From a virus (taxonomy: Duplodnaviria; Heunggongvirae; Uroviricota; Caudoviricetes): a DNA stretch of 44,162 nt. The translations under genes and the position numbers were made by a program. Positions 6,985 to 44,162 of this stretch are shown here, piece after piece; positions within the stretch are counted from its first letter, which is position 1; each line of letters opens with the position of its first letter. The stretch is from IMG/VR virus record IMGVR_UViG_2541047704_000003; one strand, given 5' to 3'. The notes beneath the pieces were generated by a model, which saw only the letters and a list, made by a program, of their open reading frames with translations, searched no databases and was not told where the DNA came from.

Positions 6985-6989
6985 CCGTT

Positions 6990-7286: not shown

Positions 7287-7361
7287 GGCTGAACTCCTGA
7301 AAATGGCTGTGAAAATATCGCCCGCGAAATGCCAGGCTGATTAGGAAAACAGGAAAGGGGG

Positions 7362-7505
7362 TTAGTGAATGCTTTTGCTTGATCTCAGTTTCAGTATTAA
7401 TATCCATTTTTTATAAGCGTCGACGGCCTCACGAAACATCTTTTCATCGCCAATAAAAGTGGCGATAGTGAATTTAGTCTGGATAGCCATAATTGTTTGA
7501 TCCAT
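7362..7505 (-). CDS. kil: Kil host-killing protein (FtsZ inhibitor)
   Basis: 47-aa reading frame [47 protein letters not shown] (C-terminal part of track ORF 7362-7631) matching lambda Kil; overlaps cIII in another frame as in lambda. Confidence 0.7.
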
Positions 7506-7638
7506 TTTTTGGGACTCCTGGCTGATTAAGTATGTCGATAAGGCGTTTCCATCCGTCACGTAATTTACGGGTGATTCGTTCAAGTAAAGATTCGGAAGGG
7601 CAGCCAGCAACAGGCCACCCTGCAATGGCATATTGCAT
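7474..7638 (-). CDS. cIII: CIII (FtsH inhibitor, protects CII)
   Basis: 54-codon ORF read by hand on minus strand: [54 protein letters not shown], matching lambda CIII; AAGGAG Shine-Dalgarno 6 nt upstream; below the 60-aa track cutoff. Confidence 0.7.
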   Translation of the reverse strand: MQYAIAGWPVAGCPSESLLERITRKLRDGWKRLIDILNQPGVPKNGSNNYGYPD

Positions 7639-7710
7639 GGTGTGCTCCTTATTTATACATAACGAAAAACGCCTCGAGTGAAGCGTAATTGGTATGCGGT
7701 AACGCCGCGC

Positions 7711-8079
7711 TCAGGCGGCCTTGATAGTCATATCATCTGAATCAAATATTCCTGATGTATCGATATCGGTAATTCTTATTCCTTCACTACCATCCATTGG
7801 AGGCCATCCTTCCTGACCATTTCCATCATTCCAGTCGAACTCACACACAACACCATATGCATTTAAGTCGCTTGAAATTGCTATAAGCAGAGCATGTTGC
7901 GCCAGCATGATTAATACAGCATTTAATACAGAGCCGTGTTTATTGAGTCGGTATTCAGAGTCTGACCAGAAATTATTAATCTGGTGAAGTTTTTCCTCTG
8001 TCATTACGTCATGGTCAATTTCAATTTCTATTGATGCTTTCCAGTCGTAATCAATGATGTATTTTTTGATGTTTGACAT
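7711..8079 (-). CDS. ea10: Ea10-like protein
   Basis: 122-aa ORF in the ea10 position between cIII and ral; matches my recollection of lambda Ea10. Confidence 0.6.
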   Translation of the reverse strand: MSNIKKYIIDYDWKASIEIEIDHDVMTEEKLHQINNFWSDSEYRLNKHGSVLNAVLIMLAQHALLIAISSDLNAYGVVCEFDWNDGNGQEGWPPMDGSEGIRITDIDTSGIFDSDDMTIKAA

Positions 8080-8092
8080 CTATTCATATCCT

Positions 8093-8125
8093 CATAGATA
8101 AAAAATCGCCCTCACACTGGAGGGC
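8093..8125 (-). terminator. rho-independent terminator-like hairpin in leftward operon (tL2-like position)
   Basis: on minus strand GCCCTC-CAGTGT-GAGGGC followed by GATTTTTTAT; lies between ral and ea10. Confidence 0.45.
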
Positions 8126-8261
8126 AAAGAAGATTTCCAATAATCAGAACAAGTCGGCTCCTGTTTAGTTACGAGCGACATTGCTCCGTGTATTCACTCG
8201 TTGGAATGAATACACAGTGCAGTGTTTATTCTGTTATTTATGCCAAAAATAAAGGCCACTA

Positions 8262-8462
8262 TCAGGCAGCTTTGTTGTTCTGTTTACCAAGTTCTCTGGC
8301 AATCATTGCCGTCGTTCGTATTGCCCATTTATCGACATATTTCCCATCTTCCATTACAGGAAACATTTCTTCAGGCTTAACCATGCATTCCGATTGCAGC
8401 TTGCATCCATTGCATCGTTTGAATTGTCCACACCATTGATTTGTATCAATAGTCGTAGTCAT
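8262..8462 (-). CDS. ral: Ral restriction-alleviation protein
   Basis: 66-aa ORF MTTTIDTNQWCGQFKRCNGCKLQSECMVKPEEMFPVMEDGKYVDKWAIRTTAMIARELGKQNNKAA matching lambda Ral. Confidence 0.8.
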   Translation of the reverse strand: MTTTIDTNQWCGQFKRCNGCKLQSECMVKPEEMFPVMEDGKYVDKWAIRTTAMIARELGKQNNKAA

Positions 8463-8675
8463 ACGGATAGTCCTGGTATTGTTCCATCACATCTTGAGGA
8501 TGCTCTTCGAACTCTTCAAATTCTTCTTCCATATATCACCTTAAATAGTGGATTGCGGTAGTAAAGATTGTGCCTGTCTTTTAACCACATCAGGCTCGGT
8601 GGTTCTCGTGTACCCCTACAACGAGAAATCGGATAAACTCTATTCACCCCTACAGAGAGCAAAAGAGAAACGCCG

Positions 8676-9257
8676 ATGAACAACTCATGGTGGCAGGAAC
8701 TAATGCATTTTTTCCTGCAAGGAATGACACTTAAACAGTTGATTCATATGCTAATCATCCTGATCATATTGATTATTGTTATGCCGGTAAGCGTAAAAGA
8801 ATGGATAAACCTGCATAGTCCAGAAATCCTTCCTCATTACTGGATGTATTACATCCTGTTGTTTTGCGTTAGCTATGTGCTTAACGGCGTTGTTAATTCC
8901 GCTTATCACGCTGTGACTGAAAGAATTGAGGTATTCGCTGCTCAGAAGCGCAAATCTAAAGAAGAAAAATATGTGCAAGATTTGTTTGATTCGTTAACTC
9001 TTGGAGAAAGAGCGTATTTGGCATTCGCTGTAGCCGCTAATAACCAGCTACAAACGGAAAAGGGCGCTCATGAATCAATTTCATTGCTCAAAAAAGGACT
9101 CCTCGTTCGAAGGCCTCCTGCTGTTGGATATCCTGATACCGACCGTTTCGTTATCCCTGAAAGCTATAGACATGAGTGCTACATTAGGTTTGCCGGGAAG
9201 GCAGACAGCCTTATGGATGAACTTATCGCTCAGGATAAGCATGGCAAAAACAAGTAA
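8676..9257 (+). CDS. sieB: SieB superinfection exclusion protein
   Basis: 193-aa ORF MNNSWWQELMHFFLQGMTLKQLIHMLIILI... with N-terminal transmembrane segments, closely matching lambda SieB; located between ral and N as in lambda. Confidence 0.85.
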   Translation: MNNSWWQELMHFFLQGMTLKQLIHMLIILIILIIVMPVSVKEWINLHSPEILPHYWMYYILLFCVSYVLNGVVNSAYHAVTERIEVFAAQKRKSKEEKYVQDLFDSLTLGERAYLAFAVAANNQLQTEKGAHESISLLKKGLLVRRPPAVGYPDTDRFVIPESYRHECYIRFAGKADSLMDELIAQDKHGKNK

Positions 9258-9273
9258 TTAGCAAATGAATTTA

Positions 9274-9546
9274 TCATCTCGCCGTCAGTTGTTTTGATTT
9301 CCGGTAGCCTGCCGCGTAAAGAGCTACGTTCGGAAGACAAGTTGAACCTTCATATTTTCTGGTCAACGTTGTCAGAGTTATCACTTCTGCTCTCATTGCT
9401 GGTTTGAGCTTGCATTGCAAGACCACTCGTGAAGGGGTTGGCCTGTGTAGCTTGTCGGAGCTGATCGCCTCCTGACTTTGCAGATTTGCGCGACGAGCTC
9501 TACGGCGAGAAGCTGCGGTGCCTTTAAATTCTGTTTTTCTGGACAT
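9274..9546 (-). CDS. N: N-type transcription antiterminator
   Basis: arginine-rich motif GTAASRRRARRANLQ near N-terminus (N-protein ARM-like); strong GGGAGG Shine-Dalgarno before ATG at 9546 (track ORF extends to 9618); nutL boxA/boxB just upstream; position between sieB and pL. Confidence 0.6.
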   Translation of the reverse strand: MSRKTEFKGTAASRRRARRANLQSQEAISSDKLHRPTPSRVVLQCKLKPAMRAEVITLTTLTRKYEGSTCLPNVALYAAGYRKSKQLTAR

Positions 9547-9644
9547 GGATTCCTCCCGAATAAACTTTGGCGATGCAATCTCGAAGCTCCTCCTGAGACG
9601 GTTGCTTCGGCATTGCATCCCACAGCTTATGTGGTTGGGTGATC

Positions 9645-9689
9645 TGGCTTTTCAGCCACGTAGTCGAGAGTCGACGTTGTTTAAAGAGC
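9645..9689 (-). promoter_or_regulatory. nutL (boxA GCTCTTTAAACAA plus boxB hairpin TGGCT-GAAA-AGCCA)
   Basis: read on minus strand upstream of N; boxA resembles CGCTCTT(T)A consensus; boxB is a 5-bp stem with purine-rich GAAA(A) loop like lambda boxB. Confidence 0.5.
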
Positions 9690-9734
9690 CTGCCAGTCTG
9701 TTCCATTTGGCTTCCAGCGTCCTGCTGACGGTTA

Positions 9735-9800
9735 AATAGTACGATATGTACTTTACAAGATCAATACAATTTGTTGTAAGTTGGCGTGGTTTTTTATAAC
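9735..9800 (-). promoter_or_regulatory. candidate pL/oL operator-promoter region
   Basis: contains 11-mer ATATGTACTTT (9744-9754) that recurs in inverse orientation at oR (12054-12064), plus TACAA/TTGTA half-site-like repeats; located between the rex-position cassette and nutL/N. Confidence 0.4.
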
Positions 9801-9952
9801 GCTTTGTATTTAATAGTGTTGTTTTTTAGCGTGGATGTATTGCCTCGGCGATGTAAGGAGAGATCAGAATTGCGTGGTTTAGTGGGTTGCATCTATTTAT
9901 TTTTCAATAAATATAATTGGTTATGTGTTTTTAGGTGGGCGAACGTGAGGCA

Positions 9953-9977
9953 AAGAAAACCCGGCGCTGAGGCCGGG
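9953..9977 (-). terminator. rho-independent terminator closing the cI operon
   Basis: minus-strand hairpin CCCGGC-CTCAGC-GCCGGG followed by TTTTCTTTG, beginning 5 nt after the stop of ORF 9983-10735. Confidence 0.5.
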
Positions 9978-9982
9978 TTGTA

Positions 9983-10735
9983 TTATGCTGCAAGTCTCTT
10001 AACCCAAGTCTCTCTTTTGGAGAATGGTAGAACTTGGCTTGATTCATGGAAGAGTAAGGAGAGTTGTTGCATTTGATCACCAATTGCTTCGCTGTCTATA
10101 ACAACAAATCTGTTGTTATACTCCTCACTTGAAGCTTTAAGATCAATTAGTTTCCCAAGCAATGAGTAAGCACTATTCCAGCTTCCTCCGTGTTTCACGC
10201 TTGATGTAAAAACGTATTTAGGTATGTCGGTTTTTATTGTTACAGGGACGGTAATTTGATGTCCACTCAAGCCATATACGTTTTCACGAAGAGAAAGTGC
10301 GTCTCTAAGCTCTGTGTGATATAGATAATCAATAACCATACTTTCAAACTTTTCAGCTTGAACTGGCTGATACCAGTCTAACGACAAAGTTGATGCGAGT
10401 ATACCAGCTCTAATTATGTTCGATGTAATCGCACCGACATCCTTTTCTGTTGCCCAAGCAATGATTTCTCCTCGAGCATTGAGTTCTGCGCCTTCTTTAA
10501 GCAGTAATTGTCGTATCTCATCAAGTCGTTTTTTGGTAAGCGAGATCCCTCTTGCCTCCATATTCATTAAGGCATCGCATCTGTCACTAACTAAATACCT
10601 ACCATTGACTTCACGGATAAAGGCACCGACATGCTCTCCATCATCACAGTAAGTGAATGGACTGATAATTCTCAAGGTCTTGCCTATTGGATGGCATTCG
10701 AAACCTAGTTGTGAGATCACTGTTGAGCACATCAT
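9983..10735 (-). CDS. uncharacterised protein, distal gene of two-gene cassette in the rexAB position
   Basis: 250-aa ORF; start overlaps stop of upstream ORF (ATGA); AT-rich relative to flanking phage DNA; no family, transmembrane segment or catalytic motif recognised. Confidence 0.6.
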   Translation of the reverse strand: MMCSTVISQLGFECHPIGKTLRIISPFTYCDDGEHVGAFIREVNGRYLVSDRCDALMNMEARGISLTKKRLDEIRQLLLKEGAELNARGEIIAWATEKDVGAITSNIIRAGILASTLSLDWYQPVQAEKFESMVIDYLYHTELRDALSLRENVYGLSGHQITVPVTIKTDIPKYVFTSSVKHGGSWNSAYSLLGKLIDLKASSEEYNNRFVVIDSEAIGDQMQQLSLLFHESSQVLPFSKRETWVKRLAA

Positions 10736-11289
10736 ATTCCAAACCCCATTTGCCCCGACTCATCTTCAAGCGGTAAAGGTATTCTCCCAGAGTAAGTTAT
10801 GTTCAGATGTTTACAGAAGTAATTCCAATACCCTACCAGGTCATCTGGGTTTATGTCATCTTCGATTGGAAACGCTATTCTATCACTATAGTATCCAGCT
10901 TCTTCATAGTATACATGGTAGTGAGCACCGTAAATGATATCTTGGTACTTCGGATGATCGACCTTGTAACTATTCGTGTGTTTGTCAAAGTGATAGGTAT
11001 CTACCGCGAAAACCCTCTTGTTATGATAGAAAGCAATAATATTTATTTTAGGGTAAGAAATCGGGTCATCAGGTTCTGAATCCTGATCTGGTTTCCATTT
11101 CAGTTCAAACTTTAGCCCTTGTATAGGTATACAATCCTCATCCAAGGGGATGATATGGGCTTGTAGCCACATATCAGAGCGACTTGGTTTCTGTTTCCAT
11201 TTAACGCCAGAAAAGTTAACTATTTTTTTACAATAAAGTACTTTATCAACTTCTACTTGGCTTGGCTGATAATCATCTATTTTTGCCAA
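10732..11289 (-). CDS. uncharacterised acidic protein, proximal gene of two-gene cassette in the rexAB position
   Basis: 185-aa ORF 39 nt downstream of cI stop on the same strand; Asp/Glu/Tyr-rich; no family recognised. Confidence 0.6.
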   Translation of the reverse strand: MAKIDDYQPSQVEVDKVLYCKKIVNFSGVKWKQKPSRSDMWLQAHIIPLDEDCIPIQGLKFELKWKPDQDSEPDDPISYPKINIIAFYHNKRVFAVDTYHFDKHTNSYKVDHPKYQDIIYGAHYHVYYEEAGYYSDRIAFPIEDDINPDDLVGYWNYFCKHLNITYSGRIPLPLEDESGQMGFGI

Positions 11290-11328
11290 TGTTTACCGCC
11301 CTGTAAATTGTAGATAAAAGTGGTTTCA

Positions 11329-11988
11329 TCACCCAAACGTCTCTTCAGGCCATTGGCTGGCGATAACTTTCCCCACAACGGAACAACTCTCATTGCATGG
11401 GATCATTGGGTATTGTGGGTTTAGTGGCTGTAGAAACACCTGACCGCTATCCCTGATCAGTTTCTTGAAGGTAAATTCATCACCACTAAGTCTGGCTATG
11501 CAGAAATCGCCGGGCTCAACAGCTTGCTCAGGGTCAACCAGAATTAACATCCCGTCAGGAAAGCTGGGTTTGGAACCTGTTGGTGCGGTCATTGAGTTAC
11601 CTTCAACCTCAAGCCAGAATGCAGAGTCACTGGCTTTTTTGGTTGTGCTTACCAATCTCTCCGCATCGCCTTTGGTAAAGGTTCTGAGTTCTGGAGAGAA
11701 CATCCCAGCCTGAACATGAGAAAAAACAGGGTACTCATATTGTTTTTTAACTGGGGCCGATGAGTATTCGCCAACAGGTGAAAATGTCCCGTCGTGGTTG
11801 AATGATATGTTATCAATACCAAGGTATTTAAACACCACACCAATATCACTAAGAGATGGATGACGAGATCCGCGCAACCAGTGTCCAATCCCACCCTGCG
11901 TCATACCTAGCTCTTCGGCTAACTTCTCTTGAGTTATGCCGAGCTCTTTCATTCTGGATCTAGCCAGTTCATACCATTTCATTTTCAT
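11329..11988 (-). CDS. cI: CI-type prophage repressor (HTH N-terminal domain plus LexA/S24-like autocleavage domain)
   Basis: C-terminal ~130 aa ([21 protein letters not shown]...[15 protein letters not shown]) matches lambda CI; N-terminal HTH ([20 protein letters not shown]) differs from lambda; start uncertain (ATG 11988 favoured, track ORF starts with TTG at 12030). Confidence 0.8.
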
Positions 11989-12030
11989 GTCCTTATTATT
12001 ACGCTCTGTACTGGAACCATCCATGCACAA

Positions 12031-12090
12031 TGTGTATTTTTACTTGTATTCGCAAAGTACATATTGTATTTTTTTTATTCGTGTTTACTA
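12031..12090. promoter_or_regulatory. candidate oR/pR-pRM divergent operator-promoter region
   Basis: intergenic region between divergent cI and cro; contains AAAGTACATAT (12054-12064), the reverse complement of the oL 11-mer, and repeated TTGTATT elements. Confidence 0.45.
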
Positions 12091-12100
12091 TGGAGGGCAT

Positions 12101-12316
12101 ATGAGCAACCTACGAAAATATCGAGAGTCACTGAATATCTCTCAAACAACACTTGCTAAGGCAGTTGGATGCACACAGGGAGCTATCGGACATTGGGAAT
12201 CTGGTCGTCGCTTCCCAGACCTTAAAACATGCCGTGCTCTTGTTGCGTGCCTAAACAAGTTAGGCGCAAAAGTCAGTCTTGATGACGTGTTCCCGCCGGA
12301 ACACAAAGCCGCTTAA
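12101..12316 (+). CDS. cro: Cro-like repressor (HTH XRE family)
   Basis: 71-aa ORF MSNLRKYRESLNISQTTLAKAVGCTQGAIGHWESGRRFPDL... with HTH; GGAGGG Shine-Dalgarno upstream; divergent from cI. Confidence 0.7.
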   Translation: MSNLRKYRESLNISQTTLAKAVGCTQGAIGHWESGRRFPDLKTCRALVACLNKLGAKVSLDDVFPPEHKAA

Positions 12317-12326
12317 TAAGCGGATC

Positions 12327-12372
12327 CGCTCTTTGTAACAACGGACATTCGTCCTACGTCGCTGAAAAGCGA
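12327..12372 (+). promoter_or_regulatory. nutR (boxA CGCTCTTTGTAACAA plus boxB hairpin TCGCT-GAAA-AGCGA)
   Basis: directly downstream of cro; same boxA/boxB architecture and GAAA(A) loop as nutL. Confidence 0.5.
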
Positions 12373-12457
12373 GTTCCAAGATATCTGACCAACTAAGGCC
12401 ATATGCGTTTCCACGCATACCTTTCAACTAACTATTCACTATTGGAAATCTTAAGAA

Positions 12458-12754
12458 ATGGAAAGAACAAGTTACAGCAAACTATCACAGCGTGACGTTG
12501 ATCGCGCAGAAACAGATTTACTTATCAATCTGTCAGCTATTACCCAGCGCGGTCTGGCAAAGATGATTGGCTGTCATGAATCGAAGATAAGCAGAACGGA
12601 CTGGAGATTTATTGCTTCGGTCTTGTGTGCTTTCGGAATGGCATCAGACATCAGTCCGATTAGCAGGGCTTTTAAGTATGCGCTTGATGGACTCACCAAT
12701 AAAAAACGCCCGGCGGCAACCGAGCGTTCTGAACAAATCCAGATGGAATTCTGA
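12458..12754 (+). CDS. cII: CII transcriptional activator
   Basis: 98-aa ORF; C-terminus LTNKKRPAATERSEQIQMEF matches lambda CII; N-terminal DNA-binding part differs from lambda. Confidence 0.8.
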   Translation: MERTSYSKLSQRDVDRAETDLLINLSAITQRGLAKMIGCHESKISRTDWRFIASVLCAFGMASDISPISRAFKYALDGLTNKKRPAATERSEQIQMEF

Positions 12755-12786
12755 GGTCATTACTGGATCAATCCACAGGAGTCATT

Positions 12787-13686
12787 ATGACAAATACAGC
12801 AAAAATACTCAACTTCTGCAGAGGTAACTTTGCCAAACAGGAGCGTAATGTGGCAGATCTCGATGATGGTTACGCCAGACTATCAAATATGCTGCTTGAG
12901 GCTTATTCAGGCGCAGATCTGACCAAGCGACAGTTTAAAGTGCTGCTTGCCATTCTGCGTAAAACCTATGGATGGAATAAACCAATGGACAGAATCACCG
13001 ATTCTCAACTTAGCGAGATTACAAAGTTACCCGTCAAACGGTGCAATGAAGCCAAGTTAGAACTCGTCAGAATGAATATTATCAAGCAGCAAGGCGGCAT
13101 GTTTGGACCAAATAAAAACATCTCAGAATGGTGTATCCCTCAAAACGAGGGAAAATCCCCTAAAACGAGGGATAAAACATCCCTCAAATTGGGGGATTGC
13201 TATCCCTCAAAACAGGGGGACACAAAAGACACTATTACAAAAGAAAAAAGAAAAGATTATTCGTCAGAGAATTCTGGCGAATCCTCTGACCAGCCAGAAA
13301 ACGACCTTTCTGTGGTGAAACCGGATGCTGCAATTCAGAGCGGCAGCAAGTGGGGGACAGCAGAAGACCTGACCGCCGCAGAATGGATGTTTGACATGGT
13401 GAAGACCATCGCGCCATCAGCCAGAAAACCGAATTTTGCAGGGTGGGCTAACGATATCCGCCTGATGCGTGAACGTGACGGACGTAACCATCGCGACATG
13501 TGTGTACTGTTCCGCTGGGCATGCCAGGACAACTTCTGGTCCGGTAACGTGCTGAGCCCGGCCAAACTCCGCGACAAGTGGACCCAGCTCGAAATCAACC
13601 GTAACAAGCAACAGGCAGGTGTGACAGCCTGCAAACCAAAACTCGACCTGACAAACACTGACTGGATTTACGGGGTGGATTTATGA
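12787..13686 (+). CDS. O: replication initiator O
   Basis: 299-aa ORF closely matching lambda O; internal iterons present. Confidence 0.9.
   Translation: MTNTAKILNFCRGNFAKQERNVADLDDGYARLSNMLLEAYSGADLTKRQFKVLLAILRKTYGWNKPMDRITDSQLSEITKLPVKRCNEAKLELVRMNIIKQQGGMFGPNKNISEWCIPQNEGKSPKTRDKTSLKLGDCYPSKQGDTKDTITKEKRKDYSSENSGESSDQPENDLSVVKPDAAIQSGSKWGTAEDLTAAEWMFDMVKTIAPSARKPNFAGWANDIRLMRERDGRNHRDMCVLFRWACQDNFWSGNVLSPAKLRDKWTQLEINRNKQQAGVTACKPKLDLTNTDWIYGVDL
13134..13262 (+). repeat. ori-lambda-type origin: four iterons plus AT-rich region inside O
   Basis: four ~18-bp inverted-repeat iterons of the form ATCCCTCAAAACGAGGGA (variants) followed by A/T-rich stretch ACAAAAGAAAAAAGAAAAGATTATT. Confidence 0.7.
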
Positions 13687-17549: not shown

Positions 17550-18632
17550 TTAGAACTGATAAACCAGACCTACAGCGACGATGTCGTCGGTATCAATACC
17601 AGCTGTTTTGGTAAACTTACTATCGTCAATTAAGTTGATTTTGTAATCAACAAAAGTGGACATGTTTTTATTAAAGTAGTAAGTAGCACCGACATCGACA
17701 TACTTGACTAAGTCTCGGTCACCATGAACACCAAGGTCTTTACCTTTTGACTGAAGGTAAGCAACAGATGGACGCAGACCGAAGTCAAACTGATATTGTG
17801 CTACTGCTTCAAAGTTTTGTGCTTTGTTTGCAATATGGTTATTACCAAAAACGGTCATATTCTGAGTTTCAGAATATGTGGTAGCCAGATAGATATTGTT
17901 CGCATCATATTTCAGGCCTGCAGCCCATACTTCCGCATTTTTGCCGGAGGCATTGAATTTGCTCTTACCATAGGCGACCTGACCGTCAGTGCGATCTGAT
18001 TTAGCATAGGTTGCACCCACGCCGAATCCTTCATACTCATAAGTAGTGGAGAAACCGAAACCATCACCATTGGCTTCAGTTACGTCAGTGCGGTCATTTT
18101 TACCCTGATACTGAGCAGCAAAGTTCAGGCCATCGACCAGACCAAAGAAGTCGTTGTTACGATAAGTTGCAACACCAGTAGTGCGACCAGTCATGAACAC
18201 ATCTGTTTGGGTCCAGGTATCACCACCGAATTCTGGCAGAACGTCAGTCCACGCACCGATGTCGTATGCTACACCGTAGTTACGGCCGTAATCGATTGAG
18301 CCGTAATCACCAAATTTCAGGCCTGCAAATGCAAGACGGGTTTTGTCTTTGGAAGAACCTTGAGATTCAGCACGGTTGCCTTTGAATTCATATTCCCACT
18401 GACCGAAACCAGTCAGTTGATCGTTGATTTGGGTTTCACCTTTGAAGCCAAGACGGGCATAAGTAGTATCACCATCATCTGCATCATTAGAGGAGAAGTA
18501 GTGCTTGGCATTAACTTTCCCGTATAGATCCAGCTTGTTACTGTCTTTATTATAAATTTCAGCTGCCTGAGCAGACATCGCCATCAGTACTGATGCAGCT
18601 ACAGCAGAAATTGCCACTGTTAATTTTTTCAT
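17550..18632 (-). CDS. general outer-membrane porin (OmpC/OmpF/NmpC family)
   Basis: signal peptide [23 protein letters not shown], porin-family N-terminus [18 protein letters not shown]-terminal ...VGLVYQF ending in Phe; located between Q and lysis genes on the opposite strand as nmpC is in DLP12. Confidence 0.9.
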
Positions 18633-19058
18633 TGTACGCCCTTTTTTTGAACTTTTATTAAAAAATGATGTCACTGCGCGATAAATATTCATCTAATCAA
18701 TGTGATTATTTCAAGATGTAAGTTTTAGTTTCTCATTTAATTTGTGAAGTAGATCTCTATTTTTATCTGAACCTTTTCTATCTAATCCTATTCATGGCTC
18801 TTGTCTGAACAAAAATAAATCTATTAGCTAATTTATATTAATGGCACTTATTTATAAGTGCTCTATAATTCTTTAGCTTAATTTAAACAAACTAAAAATA
18901 ACATCGGAAATTATTAACTGGTTATTTGTTGAAGTTTTCTTATGCATTTGTGGTGGTGTTTTGAACACTCGGTGGCATTCTCACAAATATCATTTAGTAG
19001 TTTACGTACGTAAAAAATTGGTTATGCTGTTAAGAGTGGTTACTTCGTCACACAGCTT

Positions 19059-19090
19059 AAACCCGCCGTCGAGCGGGTTTTTCCATTTTT
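19059..19090 (+). terminator. rho-independent terminator-like hairpin upstream of holin
   Basis: AAACCCGC-CGTCGA-GCGGGTTT followed by TTCCATTTTTT. Confidence 0.45.
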
Positions 19091-19220
19091 TGAGTCTCGA
19101 TATTAGCTGATAACCCAATACCTGAGTTATTCACTGACTCCGAATCTGTTACGTTTCTGCCTTTATTGCGATACGTAGTATCCCCTTAATTTACACCCGC
19201 TTTGTCTGCGAGGTGGGGTT

Positions 19221-19436
19221 ATGAAATCCATGGATAAGTTAACAACGGGTGTCGCCTATGGTACCTCAGCAGGTAGTGCCGGGTACTGGTTTTTACAGTT
19301 GCTCGATAAAGTCACGCCCTCACAGTGGGCGGCAATAGGTGTGCTGGGTAGCCTGGTATTTGGCCTGCTGACGTACCTGACAAACCTTTATTTCAAGATT
19401 AAAGAAGATAAGCGCAAGGCTGCGAGAGGTGAATAA
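19221..19436 (+). CDS. class II holin / pinholin (phage 21 S-like, dual start MKSM)
   Basis: 71-aa ORF with two transmembrane segments and dual-start motif Met1-Lys-Ser-Met4; immediately precedes SAR endolysin. Confidence 0.8.
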
Positions 19437-19933
19437 TGCCTCCATCATTACGAAAAGCCGTTGCTGCTGCTATTGGTGGCGGAGCAATTGCTATAGCATC
19501 AGTGTTAATCACTGGCCCAAGTGGTAACGATGGTCTGGAAGGTGTCAGCTACATACCATACAAAGATATTGTTGGTGTATGGACTGTATGTCACGGGCAT
19601 ACAGGAAAAGACATCATGCTCGGTAAAACGTATACCAAAGCAGAATGCAAAGCCCTCCTGAATAAAGACCTTGCCACGGTCGCCAGACAAATTAACCCGT
19701 ACATCAAAGTCGATATACCGGAAACAATGCGCGGCGCTCTTTACTCATTCGTTTACAACGTGGGTGCTGGCAATTTCAGAACATCGACGCTTCTTCGCAA
19801 AATAAACCAGGGCGATATCAAAGGCGCATGTGATCAGCTACGTCGCTGGACATATGCTGGCGGTAAGCAATGGAAAGGTCTCATGACTCGTCGTGAGATT
19901 GAGCGTGAAATCTGTTTGTGGGGTCAGCAATGA
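19436..19933 (+). CDS. SAR endolysin (phage lysozyme)
   Basis: 165-aa ORF; N-terminal Gly/Ala-rich weakly hydrophobic segment [20 protein letters not shown] typical of signal-anchor-release endolysins, followed by lysozyme-like domain. Confidence 0.85.
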
Positions 19934-20391
19934 ACAGAGTAACCGCGATTATCTCCGCTCTGGTTATCTGCATCATCGTCTGCCTGTCATGGGCTGTTAA
20001 TCATTACCGTGATAACGCCATTACCTACAAAGCCCAGCGCGACAAAAATGCCAGAGAACTGACGCTGGCGAACGCGGCAATTACTGACATACAGATGCGT
20101 CAGCGTGATGTTGCTGCGCTCGATGCAAAATACACGAAGGAGTTAGCTGATGCGAAAGCTGAAAATGATGCTCTGCGTGATGATGTTGCCGCTGGTCGTC
20201 GTCGGTTGCACATCAAAGCAGTCTGTCAGTCAGTGCGTGAAGCCACCACCGCCTCCGGCGTGGATAATGCAGCCTCCCCCCGACTGGCAGACACCGCTGA
20301 ACGGGATTATTTCACCCTCAGAGAGAGGCTGATCACTATGCAAAAACAACTGGAAGGAACCCAGAAGTATATTAATGAGCAGTGCAGATAG
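19930..20391 (+). CDS. Rz spanin (inner-membrane subunit)
   Basis: ORF overlapping endolysin stop; N-terminal transmembrane segment then coiled-coil region; contains embedded Rz1. Confidence 0.75.
20150..20332 (+). CDS. Rz1 spanin (outer-membrane lipoprotein), embedded in Rz in another frame
   Basis: 60-aa ORF with lipobox VVGC and proline-rich mature region ([15 protein letters not shown]). Confidence 0.75.
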
Positions 20392-20422
20392 AGCTGCCCA
20401 TATCGATGGGCAACTCATGCAA

Positions 20423-20716
20423 TTATTGTGAGCAATACACACGCGCTTCCAGCGGAGTATAAATGCCTAAAGTAATAAAACCGAGCAATCCATTTACGAA
20501 TGTTTGCTGGGTTTCTGTTTTAACAACATTTTCTGCACCACCACAAATTTTTGCTGCATCGACAGTTTTCTTCTGCCCAATTCCCGAAACGAAGAAATGA
20601 TGGGTGATGGTTTCCTTTGGTGTTACTGCTGTAGGTTTGTTTCCAACAGTAAACGTCTGTTGAGCACATCCTGTAATAAGCATTGCCAGAGCGGCAGAAA
20701 ACAACATTTTTTTCAT
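20423..20716 (-). CDS. bor: Bor outer-membrane lipoprotein (serum resistance)
   Basis: 97-aa frame MKKMLFSAALAMLITGCAQQTFTVGNKP... matching lambda Bor; lipobox ITGC. Confidence 0.85.
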   Translation of the reverse strand: MKKMLFSAALAMLITGCAQQTFTVGNKPTAVTPKETITHHFFVSGIGQKKTVDAAKICGGAENVVKTETQQTFVNGLLGFITLGIYTPLEARVYCSQ

Positions 20717-21196
20717 CTTATTATCCTGCATTGTTAAAAACGGCAGAATCCTATGTGACAACAATTAAACGATAGTTAAATGGATTGATGAAAATTAAAA
20801 CTACACAGGTGGGCTCAGACTATTGGAGGAAGTTGGGGACACTCAGAATCCTGTGGAATGAAATAAACCGGTCTATCCGTCCATTACCCTTTTAGCTGCG
20901 CTGTATCGTCGCCGTATTCCCGCATTAACCATGACCGTAGCCCGACGGGGAATTCCTTCTGCGTGAGTGTGCGGGAATAATTAAAAACGATGCACACCGG
21001 GTTTTTACCGCGTTAATGATTCGCGGGTTTATCCCGGTGCGATGGTGGAAGAAACAGGAAGCTGTATTACAGAAAGTGCTACTACTGTATCCCGATGCGA
21101 TGTATGTAATGTGAGTCAGATAATGGCACAGGATGTGGTGATGTGGCAGTCTGGAACACAGGATATATTGTCAGAATAAGACCCGTAGGAATAAAA

Positions 21197-21523
21197 ATGA
21201 AAAGACGCCTTTTACTACTTTTTCTGTTATCTGTCCTGGCAGTGGGATGCTCGCAGCAAAAAGCTGATGAGCCCCGGCAATTAGTGACGGTGTATCCACG
21301 ATATCCGGAATATGCTGCAGCAAATTATATCAAGGGGCTGGTTGAGGTTAAGTTCGATATTGGTGCTGATGGGACTGTGACACGGATCGTTTTTCTCCGC
21401 TCAGAGCCTCATAATTTGTTTCGTGATGAAGTGGTGAAGGCCATGGCGAAATGGCGATTTGAAAAGAATCGCCCCTGTCAGGGAGTGAAGAGACAATTTA
21501 TCTTTACGCCGTCACGTCCTTGA
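21197..21523 (+). CDS. lipoprotein with TonB C-terminal-like domain
   Basis: lipobox LAVGC after signal peptide; YPRYPEYAAANYIKGLVEVKFDIGADGTV...AMAKWRFE resembles the TonB_C/energy-transducer fold signature; AGGA ribosome-binding site upstream. Confidence 0.55.
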   Translation: MKRRLLLLFLLSVLAVGCSQQKADEPRQLVTVYPRYPEYAAANYIKGLVEVKFDIGADGTVTRIVFLRSEPHNLFRDEVVKAMAKWRFEKNRPCQGVKRQFIFTPSRP

Positions 21524-22286
21524 TGCTTCCAGGTAGAGAGGGGCTGGAAGCAGGAGAAAAATGAAAGAGCCAGCGGTTATATTTTTGTCATGGCTGACGA
21601 GGAATGATGGAAGAAGGCGTTGTATGCCACACAACGCCTCACTGTTCATTTCTTCTTTTTCTCTGGTGGAACCCGATGAATAAGAGTTGCACTGGTTTCC
21701 GATGAGATGGCGATATACTCGGGCAAAGTATGCTGGCAGTTTTCCAACTGGTCAAAAATACCTGCTCTCGTCTGTTGCAATGCCTGCAGCATGCGGCGGC
21801 AATGCGCCTTGCTTTTACTAACCATCTTTCCTTCCTCTATCAGTCGCTGCGTGAACTCATCATGGAATACCAGGTAAATGCGGATGTTATCGGTTTTGGC
21901 TACGCAGCATAGTACAAAACGGACAGGTGCATCCCGGGACGGGGGAGGCGTCACATGTCCCTGTGATGGTTGTTCCGGGTAATGTACTGTGTGGGGCATA
22001 AAAATGTCCGATAATTTTACTTTCTACCGCAGTTAGTTGATTCGTTGGTCCTGGTAGCACATTGGGCGAGGATTTAAATGCCAGGCAACTGAAGGATGAT
22101 GTCGCAAGGGAGATAGCGAGAATATTTCTGATTTTCATTTGATGATGCCTCTGTGTGAAATGACGGTAAACGACGCACTTGTGCCGGCACATAATAGCAA
22201 GCACCATAATAGATCAGATTCGATTCTTGCTGTAAGTGATAATTATTCTCGTTTTCGGGTCCTTTCCGTCGATCCAACAGGTTACG

Positions 22287-22298
22287 GGGCGGCGACCT
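22287..22298 (+). other. cosN cohesive-end site (GGGCGGCGACCT) within cos
   Basis: exact lambda 12-nt cohesive end followed by lambda-like cosB sequence CGCGGTTTTTCACTATTTATGAAAATTTT, immediately upstream of nu1. Confidence 0.8.
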
Positions 22299-22474
22299 CG
22301 CGGTTTTTCACTATTTATGAAAATTTTTCAGGGAAAATCGTGTCGGTACTTCTCGAATATAACTTTTTGTTTTTTTTAATATTGCATCCGTAAAGGTCCG
22401 ACATGAAAGTGTCCGAAAATGCCTTTTTCTGGCGTTTTCATGTCGGGCCTTGTATTTGATAATGGGTTGTTTTC

Positions 22475-41509: not shown

Positions 41510-41520
41510 GTGGAGTGAAT

Positions 41521-43581
41521 ATGGCAGTACAGATTTCAGGCGTGCTGAAAGACGGTGCAGGAAAACCGATACAGAACTGCACCATTCAGCTCAAAGCAAA
41601 ACGTAACAGCACCACGGTTGTGGTGAACACGGTGGCCTCAGAAAATCCGGATGAAGCCGGACGTTACAGCATGGATGTCGAGTATGGCCAGTACAGCGTT
41701 ATCCTGCTGGTTGAAGGTTTTCCGCCTTCACATGCCGGGGCCATCACCGTGTATGAGGATTCTAAGCCGGGGACATTGAATGATTTTCTGGGCGCTGCAA
41801 CAGAAGATGATGTTCGTCCGGAGGCACTGTATCGTTTTGAAAAGATGGTGGAAGAGGTGGCACGCAACGCTGAAGCCGCCTCTCAGAGCGCAGCGGCAGC
41901 AAAGAAATCAGAAACAGCAGCGGCATCGTCCAGGAATGCGGCGAAAACATCAGAGACGAATGCAGGTAACAGCGCGAAAGCGGCAGCTTCTTCAAAAACA
42001 GCCGCACAAAACGCAGCAACAGCGGCAGAACGTTCAGAGACAAATGCCCGTGCGTCAGAAGAAGCCTCCGCAGACAGTGAAGAGGCTTCCCGCCGTAATG
42101 CAGAGTCAGCCGCTGAAAATGCCGGAGTCGCCACCACAAAAGCGCGGGAGGCCGCAGCAGACGCAACAAAGGCCGGGCAGAAAAAGGATGAGGCTCTGTC
42201 GGCAGCGACACGGGCTGAAAAGGCGGCAGACCGCGCAGAAGTCGCAGCGGAAGTGACTGCAGAGCCCTATGCGAATATAGTGCCGCCGCTGCCTGATGTG
42301 TGGATACCGTTTAACGATTCACTGGATATGATTGCGGGTTTTTCTCCGGGCTATAAAAAAATAGCTATTGGTGACGATGTGGTTCAGGTCGCCAGTGATA
42401 AACAGGTTAATTTCAGTCGCGCATCAACGGCAACATATATCAACAAATCTGGCGAACTGAAAACGGCGGAAATTAATGAGCCGCGATTTGAGTGTGATGG
42501 CCTGCTTATTGAGGGACAAAGAACGAACTACATGCTCAATTCGGAAAGTCCAGCCAGCTGGGGGAAGTCATCAAACATGGATGTGCCCGAAACCGGGACA
42601 GATAGTTTTGGTTTTACTTATGGAAAGTTTGTCTGCAACGATTCTCTGGTTGGGCAAACTTCGGCTATTAATATGGCATCAATTGCTGCAACAAAGTCAG
42701 TTGATGTCTCAGGCGATAACAAGTACGTGACAACCTCATGCCGTTTTAAAACAGAACGACAGGTAAGGTTACGTATACGGTTTGATAAGTATGATGGTAG
42801 TGCAACAACTTTTCTTGGCGATGCGTACATTGATACGCAAACGCTTGAAATTAATATGACAGGTGGGGCTGCCGGCAGAATTACGGCACGAGTCAGGAAG
42901 GATAAGACCACAGGCTGGATTTTTGCAGAGGCAACGATTCAGGCAATTGATGGTGAGTTAAAAATAGGCTCTCAGATACAGTATTCTCCTGAGCGGGGTG
43001 GGGCAACAGTATCTGGTGACTATATTTATCTTGCCACCCCACAAGTAGAGAATGGGCCGTGTGTATCATCATTTATTATTTCAGGAGGCAGCGCAACGAC
43101 AAGAGCCAGTGATTTGGTTAGTATCCCCACCAGAAATAATCTTTATAAGTTACCATTTACTTTTTTACTTGAGATTCATAAAAACTGGGATATTGCACCA
43201 AACGCCGCACCCCGCGTGTGGGATATAGCAGCAGCCAATACCGGGCAATCAGCAATTGCAGCAATCAACAGAGGTAGTGGTAAGTTATATATGAGTCTGT
43301 CAAACCCTTCAGGCTTGTATGTTAATAGCGCAGCGACAGATGTATTTGCAGAGAAAACCACATTTGGATGTATTGCAAAAGCTGATGGTCACTTTCATGT
43401 GGTGACAAATGGTAAAGCGGTTAATGAAGTTTATTGTGAATATAATGGTGTGACCGCTGATAAAAATATCCGATTTGGAGGGCAGACGAATACTGGAGAA
43501 CGACATCTGTTTGGCCATATTCGCAATTTCCGCATATGGCATAAAGAATTAAATGACAGGCAATTAAAAGAGGTCGTATGA
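41521..43581 (+). CDS. stf: side tail fibre protein (lambda Stf-like N-terminus, different C-terminal domain)
   Basis: N-terminal ~110 aa MAVQISGVLKDGAGKPIQNCTIQLKAKRNSTTVVVNTV... match lambda Stf; Ala/Ser/Glu-rich low-complexity middle; C-terminal ~300 aa unlike lambda, ending ...LFGHIRNFRIWHKELNDRQLKEVV; track start 41515 is GTG, ATG at 41521 preferred. Confidence 0.8.
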   Translation: MAVQISGVLKDGAGKPIQNCTIQLKAKRNSTTVVVNTVASENPDEAGRYSMDVEYGQYSVILLVEGFPPSHAGAITVYEDSKPGTLNDFLGAATEDDVRPEALYRFEKMVEEVARNAEAASQSAAAAKKSETAAASSRNAAKTSETNAGNSAKAAASSKTAAQNAATAAERSETNARASEEASADSEEASRRNAESAAENAGVATTKAREAAADATKAGQKKDEALSAATRAEKAADRAEVAAEVTAEPYANIVPPLPDVWIPFNDSLDMIAGFSPGYKKIAIGDDVVQVASDKQVNFSRASTATYINKSGELKTAEINEPRFECDGLLIEGQRTNYMLNSESPASWGKSSNMDVPETGTDSFGFTYGKFVCNDSLVGQTSAINMASIAATKSVDVSGDNKYVTTSCRFKTERQVRLRIRFDKYDGSATTFLGDAYIDTQTLEINMTGGAAGRITARVRKDKTTGWIFAEATIQAIDGELKIGSQIQYSPERGGATVSGDYIYLATPQVENGPCVSSFIISGGSATTRASDLVSIPTRNNLYKLPFTFLLEIHKNWDIAPNAAPRVWDIAAANTGQSAIAAINRGSGKLYMSLSNPSGLYVNSAATDVFAEKTTFGCIAKADGHFHVVTNGKAVNEVYCEYNGVTADKNIRFGGQTNTGERHLFGHIRNFRIWHKELNDRQLKEVV

Positions 43582-43856
43582 AAGATTTAACTTTGAAGTT
43601 TCATGACAAACTGCAGTTTAAGGCCTTCCTGTCATCTCTTGACTGGGAGGAGGATGAAGACCTCCAGAATAAACTGTTAGTCGATGAAATTGGTTTCACC
43701 TACACAGAAACAGGGGTAACAGAAGAGGGAGAACCTGTCTGTGTCCGGAATGACGGTTATTTTGTCAACATTCGCATTCTTGATGACTTGTTTGATGTTT
43801 CTGTATTCTCTGATTATGTCGTGGAGCTGGAAACACCGCTTCGGGAATGGAGCTGA
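43578..43856 (+). CDS. hypothetical acidic protein downstream of stf
   Basis: 92-aa ORF with AAGAGG ribosome-binding site, start overlapping stf stop (ATGA); no family recognised; occupies the position where lambda has tfa. Confidence 0.45.
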   Translation: MKDLTLKFHDKLQFKAFLSSLDWEEDEDLQNKLLVDEIGFTYTETGVTEEGEPVCVRNDGYFVNIRILDDLFDVSVFSDYVVELETPLREWS

Positions 43857-43868
43857 AAGGAGGAAATA

Positions 43869-44162
43869 ATGGATATAAGCCCCTTACTTCATGCGCTTTG
43901 TGCTGTGGCTGCGCAGATACTGGTTGGTCTTTTTACCGGAAACTGGGCTTACGGAGCGATAGCCGGTTGTACGTTTTTCATTGCGCGTGAACATACCCAG
44001 GCAGAATATCGCTGGATTGAAATGTTCGGGCATGGCAAGCGAATGAATATGCCGTGGTGGGGCGGTTTTGATCCGCGAGCTTGGGATGTGGCAAGCCTGA
44101 TGGATTTTGCTGTGCCGGTGGTGGCGTGTCTGCTGGTCTGGCTGTTGGTTAATCGTGGGTGA
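43869..44162 (+). CDS. hypothetical small membrane protein (two predicted transmembrane helices)
   Basis: 97-aa ORF with strong AGGAGG ribosome-binding site; hydrophobic segments LLHALCAVAAQILVGLFTG and LMDFAVPVVACLLVWLLV; stop codon is the last triplet of the window. Confidence 0.45.
   Translation: MDISPLLHALCAVAAQILVGLFTGNWAYGAIAGCTFFIAREHTQAEYRWIEMFGHGKRMNMPWWGGFDPRAWDVASLMDFAVPVVACLLVWLLVNRG

What the first reader, a model, noticed from the sequence alone, without database searches (positions are those of the whole stretch)
43578..44162. Two small unknown genes with strong ribosome-binding sites at the tail-fibre-distal cargo site
Seen in sequence: a 92-aa acidic protein (start overlapping the stf stop) and a 97-aa protein with two hydrophobic helices, each preceded by a good Shine-Dalgarno (AAGAGG, AGGAGG), lie where lambda encodes tfa. 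Established knowledge: the region downstream of tail fibre genes is a frequent site for accessory cargo in lambdoid phages, including small membrane exclusion proteins such as Cor. Inference: these may be a fibre chaperone plus a small membrane exclusion or immunity protein, or an unrelated two-gene accessory module. The window ends exactly at the second stop codon, so the downstream context is unseen.
Basis: inference. Interest (0 to 1): 0.5.

Follow-up and report, generated by a model that had tools for sequence, protein, structure and literature searches.

The report
Fibre accessory gene plus membrane moron
The two small genes are real but are not a pair: the first belongs to a lateral tail-fibre gene module shared by many coliphages, and the second is a very conserved, uncharacterised inner-membrane protein that temperate phages repeatedly carry just after their receptor-binding genes.

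Summary
orf92 (43578-43856) and orf97 (43869-44162) are intact, have good ribosome-binding sites and are under purifying selection. They are 99.9-100% identical to phage 21 genes 23/24 and to ev017. About 35% of complete E. coli genomes carry a match, always named 'hypothetical'.

The window ends at the orf97 stop because of prophage-boundary trimming. In ev017 and phage 21 the sequence continues with sitDCBA, an icd fragment and attP.

The genes are two separate things.
- orf92 (phrog_1361) is acidic and soluble. In 145 phage records it lies directly 3' of a homologous lateral fibre gene. These include virulent T5-, T1-, 9g- and HK578-like phages, often with a second fibre gene after it. It is therefore fibre-module equipment, not cargo. 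It is not a Tfa (PF02413) and has no solved-fold relative.
- orf97 (phrog_1443) is a three-helix membrane protein with a near-invariant RE-x2-QAEYR motif. It has no Pfam, NCBIfam, PADLOC or PDB relative. It occurs as a stable chromosomal gene in Aeromonas, Leclercia and sphingomonads. It also sits right after the receptor-binding genes of lambda-like, P22-like, P2-like and DGR-bearing prophages. It is absent from, or decayed in, the virulent phages that share these fibres.

The function of orf97 is unknown. An envelope-level exclusion role is my leading guess, at about 0.3.

The parts
41515..43581 (+). Side (lateral) tail fibre gene stf, 688 aa ('fibre A'). It has a prophage tail-fibre N-terminal domain, a GTA head-spike-fibre domain and a C-terminal concanavalin-like lectin domain.
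   Evidence: PF08400 (E 1e-68) and Laminin_G_3; NF048003 GTA_spike_fiber, residues 331-531; phrog_1419 tail protein. About 46% identical over roughly 560 C-terminal residues to the lateral fibres of T5-like, T1-like, 9g-like and HK578-like phages.
43568..43573 (+). Shine-Dalgarno AAGAGG of orf92, inside the 3' end of stf
   Evidence: Read directly from the sequence.
43578..43856 (+). orf92: 92-aa acidic soluble protein. Its start overlaps the stf stop (ATGA). It is the conserved small gene of the lateral-fibre module (phrog_1361).
43858..43863 (+). Shine-Dalgarno AGGAGG of orf97
   Evidence: Read directly from the sequence.
43869..44162 (+). orf97: 97-aa three-helix membrane protein of a widespread uncharacterised family (phrog_1443). 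Near-invariant H8, R40, E41, Q44, A45, E46, Y47, R48, R58, W72 and P83.

Best explanation
The locus holds two functionally separate genes at the end of the late (tail) operon of a phage-21/ev017-type lambdoid prophage.

(1) orf92 is the small middle gene of a mobile lateral-tail-fibre cassette with the order fibre A, small protein, optional fibre B.
- It is translationally coupled to fibre A.
- I infer that it acts in the cytoplasm on the fibre. It would be either an assembly or folding helper for the C-terminal lectin-type part of fibre A, which lacks the self-cleaving S74 chaperone domain, or a small adaptor at the site where fibre B docks.
- This prophage carries the B-less version of the cassette.

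(2) orf97 is an independent gene for an 11-kDa three-helix inner-membrane protein.
- A near-invariant polar motif (RE-x2-QAEYR, plus H8, R58, W72 and P83) lies at one face of the membrane.
- Temperate phages of several morphotypes have repeatedly placed it immediately 3' of their receptor-binding genes. Several bacterial genera keep it as a stable chromosomal gene.
- I infer that it binds a conserved inner-membrane component and changes envelope behaviour for the benefit of the carrying cell. The most likely effect is blocking entry of superinfecting phage DNA, by analogy with Imm, SieA and gp15. I put this specific mechanism at about 0.3.

What is shown: gene reality, family distribution, synteny, purifying selection, predicted folds, and absence from known families. 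What is inferred: both molecular roles.
For: orf92
- 145 phage records carry a homologue, all covering at least 80% of the query. In every row listed it lies under or next to a tail-fibre gene.
- Examples: T5-like IrisVonRoten, T1-like tonn, JenP1, Dhillonvirus 'rolling' and Seuratvirus SA126VB.
- The upstream fibres are homologous over about 560 residues and share the end motif RHLFGHIRNFRIWHK.
- The downstream 'fibre B' proteins share a conserved 30-residue N-terminus and have variable C-termini.
- dN/dS is about 0.3 even in lineages without fibre B.
- The protein is acidic and soluble, and the AF2 model is a confident small alpha/beta fold.
- A remote relative lies between fibre and orf97 in Comamonas prophages. 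Both proteins hit phrog_18574, and hhalign gives E 0.0014 with a collinear alignment.

orf97
- 577 clusters at 90% identity and 439 at 50% identity. All listed hits are small (58-146 aa), with no fusions.
- AF2 pLDDT 92.5, three helices.
- dN/dS 0.1-0.16.
- It sits directly after receptor-binding genes in several settings: lambdoid prophages; P22-like JEP4, with a 4-nt overlap with the tailspike gene and int downstream; the P2-like myovirus phiHAP-1, after tfa; Comamonas and Acidovorax prophages; Leclercia and Desulfovibrio tailspikes; and inside DGR cassettes between the variable-protein VR and avd.
- No hit was listed in the T5-, T1- or 9g-like phages that carry orf92 (one search compared; 40 of the 75 records were listed).
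- In HC6-type phages only a frameshifted, stop-containing remnant remains after the tailspike.
- Chromosomal copies with conserved flanks exist in Aeromonas, Leclercia, Silvania and sphingomonads.
Against: orf92
- No sequence or fold link to any known fibre chaperone.
- It does not co-vary with the variable fibre tip. The window and L005 copies are 91% identical although the last 130 fibre residues are only 40% identical. This is unlike Tfa or gp38-type tip chaperones.
- No interaction or virion-proteome data were found.

orf97
- No similarity to any known exclusion or defence protein.
- No sigma-70-like promoter or terminator of its own was found. Its start overlaps or abuts late genes, which suggests late expression rather than expression in the lysogen.
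- Its conservation is independent of receptor-binding protein type.
- Intact copies occur in virulent Aeromonas jumbo phages, away from tail genes.
- The stable chromosomal orthologues fit a general cellular role equally well.
- Topology is unresolved. The positive-inside rule puts the conserved loop in the cytoplasm, whereas the TMHMM note in the phage 21 record implies the opposite.
Confidence: 0.6

Rival explanations
1. orf97 is essentially a cellular small membrane protein with a general physiological role, such as membrane, ion, metal or redox homeostasis. Phages pick it up as a host-derived auxiliary gene, and it has no direct role in excluding phages or in receptor biology.
For: - Stable chromosomal copies with conserved non-phage flanks: pirin and RIO1/LpxL in five Aeromonas genomes, ligA in four sphingomonad genomes, and metE-like plus ABC transporter genes in five Leclercia genomes.
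- Very strong conservation across alpha-, beta-, gamma- and deltaproteobacteria.
- Intact copies in virulent Aeromonas jumbo phages, away from tail genes.
- No PADLOC hit.
Against: - Its position immediately after receptor-binding genes recurs in at least six unrelated phage backbones. That is hard to explain for a neutral housekeeping gene.
- E. coli has no chromosomal copy outside prophages.
- In Leclercia the upstream flank varies between genomes, as expected for a remnant at the end of a prophage.
Confidence: 0.25
2. orf97 acts late in the lytic cycle together with the receptor-binding proteins. It might tune lysis (holin or antiholin-like) or alter the envelope so that progeny are not lost on cell debris.
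For: - Start codons overlap or abut late genes (tailspike, tfa, fibre) in JEP4, phiHAP-1, L003 and L028.
- No promoter of its own was found.
- In Comamonas prophages it directly precedes the lysis cassette: holin-like proteins, endolysin and Rz/Rz1.
- Its size and three helices resemble class I holins.
Against: - ev017 has a complete holin-endolysin-spanin cassette elsewhere.
- orf97 has no charged C-terminal tail typical of holins.
- Only one of 88 family members gives a sub-threshold holin hit.
- Chromosomal orthologues in non-phage contexts.
- No hit listed in, or a decayed copy in, the virulent phages that share the same fibres.
Confidence: 0.12
3. orf92 and orf97 form one two-gene accessory module, for example a soluble partner with a membrane effector, or a toxin with its immunity protein.
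For: They are adjacent, 12 nt apart, in 42 of 80 related prophages. A fibre, orf92-like, orf97 trio is also seen in Comamonas prophages.
Against: - orf92 homologues occur without orf97 in the T5-, T1-, 9g- and HK578-like phages examined.
- orf97 occurs without orf92 in P22-like, P2-like and DGR prophages and in chromosomes.
- A fibre B gene lies between them in 37 of 80 prophages.
- Their distributions differ greatly: 48 clusters against 577.
Confidence: 0.05
4. orf92 is a structural adaptor that docks a second fibre (fibre B) onto fibre A. In this B-less prophage it is a leftover.
For: - It sits between fibre A and fibre B in most lineages.
- Fibre B proteins share a conserved roughly 30-residue N-terminus, as attachment modules do.
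- orf92 does not co-vary with the fibre A tip.
- BASEL annotators called the homologue 'tail fiber protein'.
Against: - It is retained intact with dN/dS about 0.3 in the many lineages without fibre B.
- In DT57C-type branched fibres, LtfB is reported to attach through LtfA, and no small protein is described in the passages I searched (PMC4728585, PMC10713586).
Confidence: 0.3

Closest known systems
Lambda Tfa / Caudo_TAP (PF02413) tail fibre assembly proteins
   Same: A small gene immediately 3' of the side tail fibre gene, co-expressed with it. It occupies the position of tfa in lambda.
   Different: No sequence hit and no fold match. About half the size I recall for lambda Tfa (~194 aa, from memory). 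It does not co-vary with the fibre tip. In many phages a second fibre gene follows it.
Branched lateral tail fibres LtfA/LtfB of T5-like phages DT57C and DT571/2 (PMC4728585, PMC10713586)
   Same: Two consecutive fibre genes in which the second fibre is thought to attach through the first. The same arrangement is seen around orf92 homologues in Bas32, JenP1, tonn and SA126VB.
   Different: Both DT57C fibres end in self-cleaving S74 chaperone domains, and no small gene between them is described in the passages I searched. Here fibre A ends in a lectin-like domain and is followed by the 92-aa gene. The window's prophage lacks fibre B altogether.
Cor (phi80, N15, HK022) and Llp (T5) receptor-blocking proteins
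   Same: Small envelope proteins encoded next to receptor-binding genes.
   Different: From established knowledge, Cor and Llp are outer-membrane lipoproteins specific for FhuA and linked to FhuA-binding proteins. orf97 has no lipobox and is a three-helix integral membrane protein. It is conserved regardless of receptor-binding protein type.
Inner-membrane superinfection exclusion proteins: T4 Imm, P22 SieA, HK97 gp15
   Same: Small phage-encoded inner-membrane proteins. gp15 is a moron embedded in a tail operon.
   Different: No Pfam, PHROG or PADLOC similarity. orf97 has stable chromosomal orthologues and is far more conserved across hosts. No functional data exist.
O-antigen conversion genes in the tailspike-int slot of P22-like phages (gtrABC, oac)
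   Same: In JEP4 the orf97 homologue lies between tailspike and int. From established knowledge, that is where P22 and Sf6 carry conversion genes.
   Different: No homology to Gtr or Oac. The family is also chromosomal in sphingomonads, which from established knowledge lack LPS. This argues against an LPS-specific role.
Class I holins such as lambda S
   Same: About 100 aa with three membrane helices, transcribed with the late genes.
   Different: No holin family hit at threshold. No charged C-terminal tail. The phage has its own holin. Chromosomal orthologues exist.

Membership tests
Tail fibre assembly protein Tfa (Pfam PF02413, Caudo_TAP) | Significant match to the PF02413 profile | tested here: not met
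   orf92 scanned against Pfam at E up to 1. The only hit was noise, LUD_dom at E 0.064. NCBIfam gave none.
Tail fibre assembly protein Tfa (Pfam PF02413, Caudo_TAP) | Gene immediately downstream of the fibre gene and co-expressed with it | tested here: met
   ATGA overlap with the stf stop. Homologue starts overlap or abut the fibre stop in IrisVonRoten, tonn, JenP1, rolling and SA126VB.
Tail fibre assembly protein Tfa (Pfam PF02413, Caudo_TAP) | Needed for fibre folding or assembly, and binds the fibre tip | not testable with these tools
   No multimer prediction or experiment was available. Co-variation with the fibre tip is weak.
Lateral-fibre cassette small protein (phrog_1361) | Full-length match to phrog_1361 and position 3' of a homologous lateral fibre | tested here: met
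   E 8e-42 over residues 1-91 of 92. Synteny in 145 phage records. The upstream fibres are homologous.
phrog_1443 small membrane protein family | Full-length match and the conserved RE-x2-QAEYR / MPWWGGFD motifs | tested here: met
   E 2e-58 over residues 1-96 of 97. Motifs are invariant in 30 sequences and at least 90% conserved in 221.
Moron (in the sense of Hendrix and Juhala) | Present or absent between otherwise related phages | tested here: met
   orf97 is present in temperate phages of several backbones. No hit was listed in the virulent phages sharing the same fibre cassette, and HC6 holds a decayed copy.
Moron (in the sense of Hendrix and Juhala) | Own promoter and terminator, and atypical base composition | tested here: not met
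   No promoter- or terminator-like site next to orf92 or orf97; the three sites the scan found all lie inside stf, at least 470 bp upstream of orf92. GC is 52.7% against 50.2% for the window. The consensus scan is crude, so weak promoters are not excluded.
Known superinfection exclusion or defence proteins (Cor, Llp, Imm, SieA/B, gp15, PADLOC systems) | Sequence similarity to a described family | tested here: not met
   No PADLOC hit at E up to 1. No Pfam or NCBIfam hit. The only PHROG hits are families of unknown function. None of 88 diverse family members hits a Pfam family at threshold.
Known superinfection exclusion or defence proteins (Cor, Llp, Imm, SieA/B, gp15, PADLOC systems) | Reduces plating or DNA entry of challenging phages when expressed | not testable with these tools
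   Requires experiments.
Holins | Match to a holin family, a charged cytoplasmic C-tail, and location in a lysis cassette | tested here: not met
   No holin hit for orf97. The C-tail averages 3 residues with 0.5 K+R. The phage's lysis cassette is elsewhere.

The most novel reading that the evidence does not exclude
The orf97 family (phrog_1443) could be a new, broadly distributed class of small inner-membrane effector. Temperate phages of many backbones would install it next to their receptor-binding genes, even inside DGR cassettes. It would act on a conserved inner-membrane target, for example to block genome entry of competing phages or otherwise control envelope traffic. Domesticated copies would be fixed in several bacterial genera. 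It is present in about a third of complete E. coli genomes and is entirely unannotated.
Probability: 0.3. Interest if true: 0.65.

Novelty: new member of a known kind. Interest (0 to 1): 0.4.

Why it matters
Both genes are very common. A match is present in 1,903 of 5,426 complete E. coli genomes, and both genes together in 1,127. Everywhere they are called 'hypothetical'.

Recognising orf92 as a fixed part of a fibre cassette matters for host-range engineering and for annotating receptor-binding loci. Lambdoid, T1-, T5-, 9g- and HK578-like phages exchange this cassette, so swaps of these fibres should probably carry the small gene along.

orf97 is a well-defined and very conserved membrane protein family with a striking positional preference. 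A simple expression-and-plating experiment could show whether it is a new exclusion or defence function or a host-physiology gene. Either answer would put a name on a large block of prophage 'dark matter'.

Tried and rejected
- Known-family searches. Pfam, NCBIfam, PADLOC and PDB sequence searches found nothing for either protein.
- Tai/Ati tail-assembly-interference systems. In the one prophage example I read, phi80, the genes are orf63 and orf64, in a deletion region the paper calls non-essential, and there is nothing to link them to this locus.
- Functional link to the downstream sit operon. Only 6 of 35 related prophages with downstream sequence carry sitD. It is also on the opposite strand.
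- LPS or O-antigen-specific enzyme for orf97. This is weakened by chromosomal copies in sphingomonads, which lack LPS, and by conservation across unrelated receptor-binding proteins.
- Holin role. The phage has its own lysis cassette.
- Promoter and terminator scan. No site next to orf92 or orf97; the few sites found lie inside stf.
- Co-variation of orf92 with fibre A or fibre B segments. Correlations were moderate and similar for all three comparisons (rho 0.53-0.60), so they do not discriminate.
- Literature. Full-text searches for the motifs and for small genes in lateral fibre loci found no description of either family.
- IMG/VR scan for diverse contexts. It returned only near-identical E. 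coli prophages.
Full report
**1. Observation**

The last 585 bases of the window contain two ORFs exactly as described.
- orf92 (43578-43856) starts with an ATG that overlaps the stop of the 688-aa side tail fibre gene (GTATGA). AAGAGG lies 4 nt upstream.
- orf97 (43869-44162) follows after 12 nt, with AGGAGG 5 nt upstream, and ends on the last base of the window.
- orf92 is acidic (pI 4.1) and has no hydrophobic segment. orf97 has two hydrophobic stretches. AlphaFold2 resolves these into three helices, 4-23, 26-53 and 74-96 (pLDDT 92.5).

**2. What the window is**

The window is a lambdoid prophage in integrated order, from int (1-1143, minus strand) to the tail genes.
- Its first 3 kb are 100% identical to phages ev017 and PhiR57_1, and its last 763 bases 99.9% and 99.6%.
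- The two genes are 99.9% identical to phage 21 genes CPT_21_23 ('hypothetical protein') and CPT_21_24 ('putative membrane protein').
- In the complete phages the sequence continues with sitDCBA on the opposite strand, two small ORFs, an icd fragment, attP and int.
- The window stops at the orf97 stop codon because of prophage-boundary trimming. 32 of 80 related IMG/VR contigs end at exactly the same base.

**3. Are they genes?**

Yes.
- Both match PHROG families of unknown function over their full length: phrog_1361 at E 8e-42 and phrog_1443 at E 2e-58.
- Among near relatives, dN/dS is about 0.3 for orf92 and 0.1-0.16 for orf97.
- A match is present in 1,903 of 5,426 complete E. coli genomes. 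1,127 carry both genes. The rows listed are all annotated 'hypothetical protein'.
- Neither protein matches anything in Pfam, NCBIfam, PADLOC or the PDB sequences.

**4. orf92 belongs to a fibre cassette**

Distribution. A translated search of 50,697 phage records finds orf92 homologues in 145 records, all at full length. In every row listed the match lies under or next to a tail-fibre gene. Many of these phages are virulent siphoviruses:
- T5-like IrisVonRoten/Bas32: LtfA 796 aa, a 92-aa 'tail fiber protein', then a second fibre of 574 aa.
- T1-like tonn: 664 aa, 92 aa, 224 aa.
- Nonagvirus JenP1: 703 aa, 92 aa, then a 351-aa endosialidase-like protein.
- Dhillonvirus 'rolling' and Seuratvirus SA126VB.

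The flanking fibres.
- The upstream 'fibre A' proteins are 33-62% identical to the window's stf over about 560 C-terminal residues. They share the end motif RHLFGHIRNFRIWHK.
- The downstream 'fibre B' proteins share a conserved N-terminus of about 30 residues (MATSTVIPxDITxLKSDVSxLK) and have unrelated C-termini. This is the usual signature of an attachment module.

Related E. coli prophages. Of 80 examined:
- 42 have fibre A, orf92, orf97, as in this window.
- 32 have fibre A, an orf92 variant of about 53% identity, fibre B, orf97.
- 5 have a more divergent 89-aa small protein plus fibre B.
- 1 has a different context.

Conclusion. orf92 is part of the fibre module and not cargo.

- In favour of a chaperone or helper: translational coupling to fibre A; retention under purifying selection where fibre B is absent; and the lack of an S74 self-chaperone on fibre A.
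- In favour of an adaptor: its position between the two fibres, and its failure to co-vary with the fibre tip (91% against 40% identity for window versus L005).
- I cannot separate these two roles with the tools available.

**5. orf97 is an independent, very conserved membrane protein**

Topology is unresolved. The region 40-73 carries on average 5.4 K+R, and every other loop carries less than 0.6. The positive-inside rule therefore places the conserved loop in the cytoplasm. The TMHMM note in the phage 21 record implies the opposite.

Genomic settings of orf97. There are two kinds.

(a) Stable chromosomal copies with conserved non-phage flanks:
- five Aeromonas genomes (pirin, X, RIO1, two LpxL-type genes);
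- five Leclercia genomes;
- three Silvania genomes;
- four sphingomonad or alphaproteobacterial genomes (ligA, X).

(b) Phages and prophages, where it lies immediately 3' of the receptor-binding genes in unrelated backbones:
- lambdoid siphoviruses (this window);
- P22-like JEP4, with a 4-nt overlap with the tailspike gene and int downstream;
- the P2/VP882-like myovirus phiHAP-1, overlapping the tail fibre assembly gene and followed by the sheath gene;
- Comamonas and Acidovorax prophages, after J or the fibre and before the lysis cassette;
- Leclercia and Desulfovibrio prophages, directly after tailspikes;
- two prophages in which it lies inside a diversity-generating retroelement (DGR), between the variable protein and avd-TR-RT. 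The VR/TR pair is 119 nt long, and 11 of its 13 mismatches fall at TR adenines.

Where it is missing.
- No hit was listed in the virulent T5-, T1- and 9g-like phages that carry the same fibre cassette (one search listed 40 of its 75 records).
- In HC6-type phages only a frameshifted, stop-containing remnant survives after the tailspike.
- Intact copies do exist in virulent Aeromonas jumbo phages, away from tail genes.

**6. How it most likely works**

The two genes are not a unit. Each is common without the other, and a fibre gene often lies between them.

- orf92: I commit to a fibre-associated role, at about 0.85 overall. Within that, assembly helper is somewhat more likely than adaptor.
- orf97: the data show a protein under strong constraint. 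It is dispensable for virion production in at least some phages, it is favoured by temperate phages, and it is also kept by cells. That pattern fits a cell-benefit gene acting through a conserved inner-membrane partner.

My leading guess for orf97 is exclusion of incoming phage DNA, at about 0.3. It rests on analogy and position only.

Three facts count against it:
- its tight coupling to late genes;
- the absence of a promoter of its own;
- its chromosomal orthologues.

These keep two rivals alive: a general cellular role (about 0.25) and a late lytic role (about 0.12).

An LPS-specific function is unlikely, because sphingomonads (which lack LPS) carry the gene. A holin role is unlikely, because the phage has its own holin, endolysin and spanin.

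**7. Comparison with known systems, and novelty**

orf92 occupies the tfa position but fails the Tfa sequence test. The nearest architectural precedent is the branched LtfA/LtfB fibre of DT57C (PMC4728585, PMC10713586), and no small gene is described there in the passages I searched.

orf97 occupies the kind of slot used by cor, llp, gtrABC, oac or P2 fun. It is unrelated to any of them.

Full-text searches for the motifs and for descriptions of these genes found nothing. Both are therefore uncharacterised families that probably belong to known functional kinds. The sequences themselves have long been in databases.

**8. Verdict**

Interest is moderate. The finding does not overturn anything. 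It does define a mobile three-gene fibre cassette and a very common, very conserved prophage membrane protein whose function could be settled by simple experiments.

Noticed in passing
window 44162 (end); L161 (ev017) 6958-13608: The window is cut exactly at the orf97 stop, as are 32 of 80 related IMG/VR prophage contigs. The complete phage continues for about 5.7 kb: sitDCBA (Mn/Fe ABC transporter), two small ORFs, an icd fragment and attP. The sit cargo was evidently scored as host DNA by the prophage caller.
   Followed up: yes
L033 4785-8054 (Comamonas nitrativorans); L035 (Pigmentiphaga humi): A diversity-generating retroelement with an orf97 homologue inserted between the variable protein and avd. 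VR is at 5810-5928 and TR at 6697-6815. They are 119 nt long and 89% identical, and 11 of the 13 mismatches fall at TR adenines. bAvd and the reverse transcriptase lie downstream.
   Followed up: partly
L072 4789-6513, L073 4292-4966, L077 4289-5344, L079 4278-6038, L006 4918-5958, L008 5286-5990: The second fibre proteins that follow orf92 homologues share a conserved N-terminus of about 30 residues (MATSTVIPxDITxLKSDVSxLK). Their C-termini are unrelated, and some carry a Peptidase_S74 chaperone domain. This looks like a common docking module for exchangeable distal fibres.
   Followed up: partly
L163 3465-3700 (Escherichia phage HC6; the same match occurs in ST1UNAM, PBM-2 and PBM-3): An unannotated, decayed copy of the orf97 family directly after an 859-aa tailspike. 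The N-terminal part is in another frame, the RE-x2-QAEYR region is lost, and there is an in-frame stop after ...PWWGGFDWRAWDLPSLLD.
   Followed up: yes
L002 3554-5970 (Lambda_4C10; also 4A7, 1W, 3W): Three 'mobile element protein' ORFs (an insertion sequence) interrupt the 3' end of the side tail fibre gene and separate its last 46 codons. orf92 and orf97 remain intact downstream.
   Followed up: no
window 41515-43581: The side tail fibre combines the lambda-type N-terminal domain (PF08400) with a domain that NCBI names after the head spike fibre of gene transfer agents (NF048003, residues 331-531), plus a C-terminal concanavalin-like lectin domain. The last 130 residues are the most variable part across phages (36-67% identity).
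   Followed up: partly
L160 (ev017 46000-50126), estimated to correspond to about window 18300-22430 (mapping not checked): Around the lysis cassette (71-aa holin, RrrD-type lysozyme, Rz-like spanin) the phage carries other envelope-related genes. These are an OmpC-like porin gene, a Bor-like outer-membrane protein gene and a short 'TonB family' ORF.
   Followed up: no
L003 8248-9795; L025 9017-10315; L032 9254-10552; L024 6619-6930: Genes resembling umuDC (a Y-family polymerase with a Peptidase_S24 protein) lie just beyond the tail or lysis end of the Comamonas prophages that carry orf97 homologues. A UmuD-like gene also lies next to one Silvania copy.
   Followed up: no
E. coli genome collection: 57 of the 3,907 matching places are on plasmids rather than chromosomes, possibly phage-plasmids. 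Some genomes carry up to seven copies.
   Followed up: no
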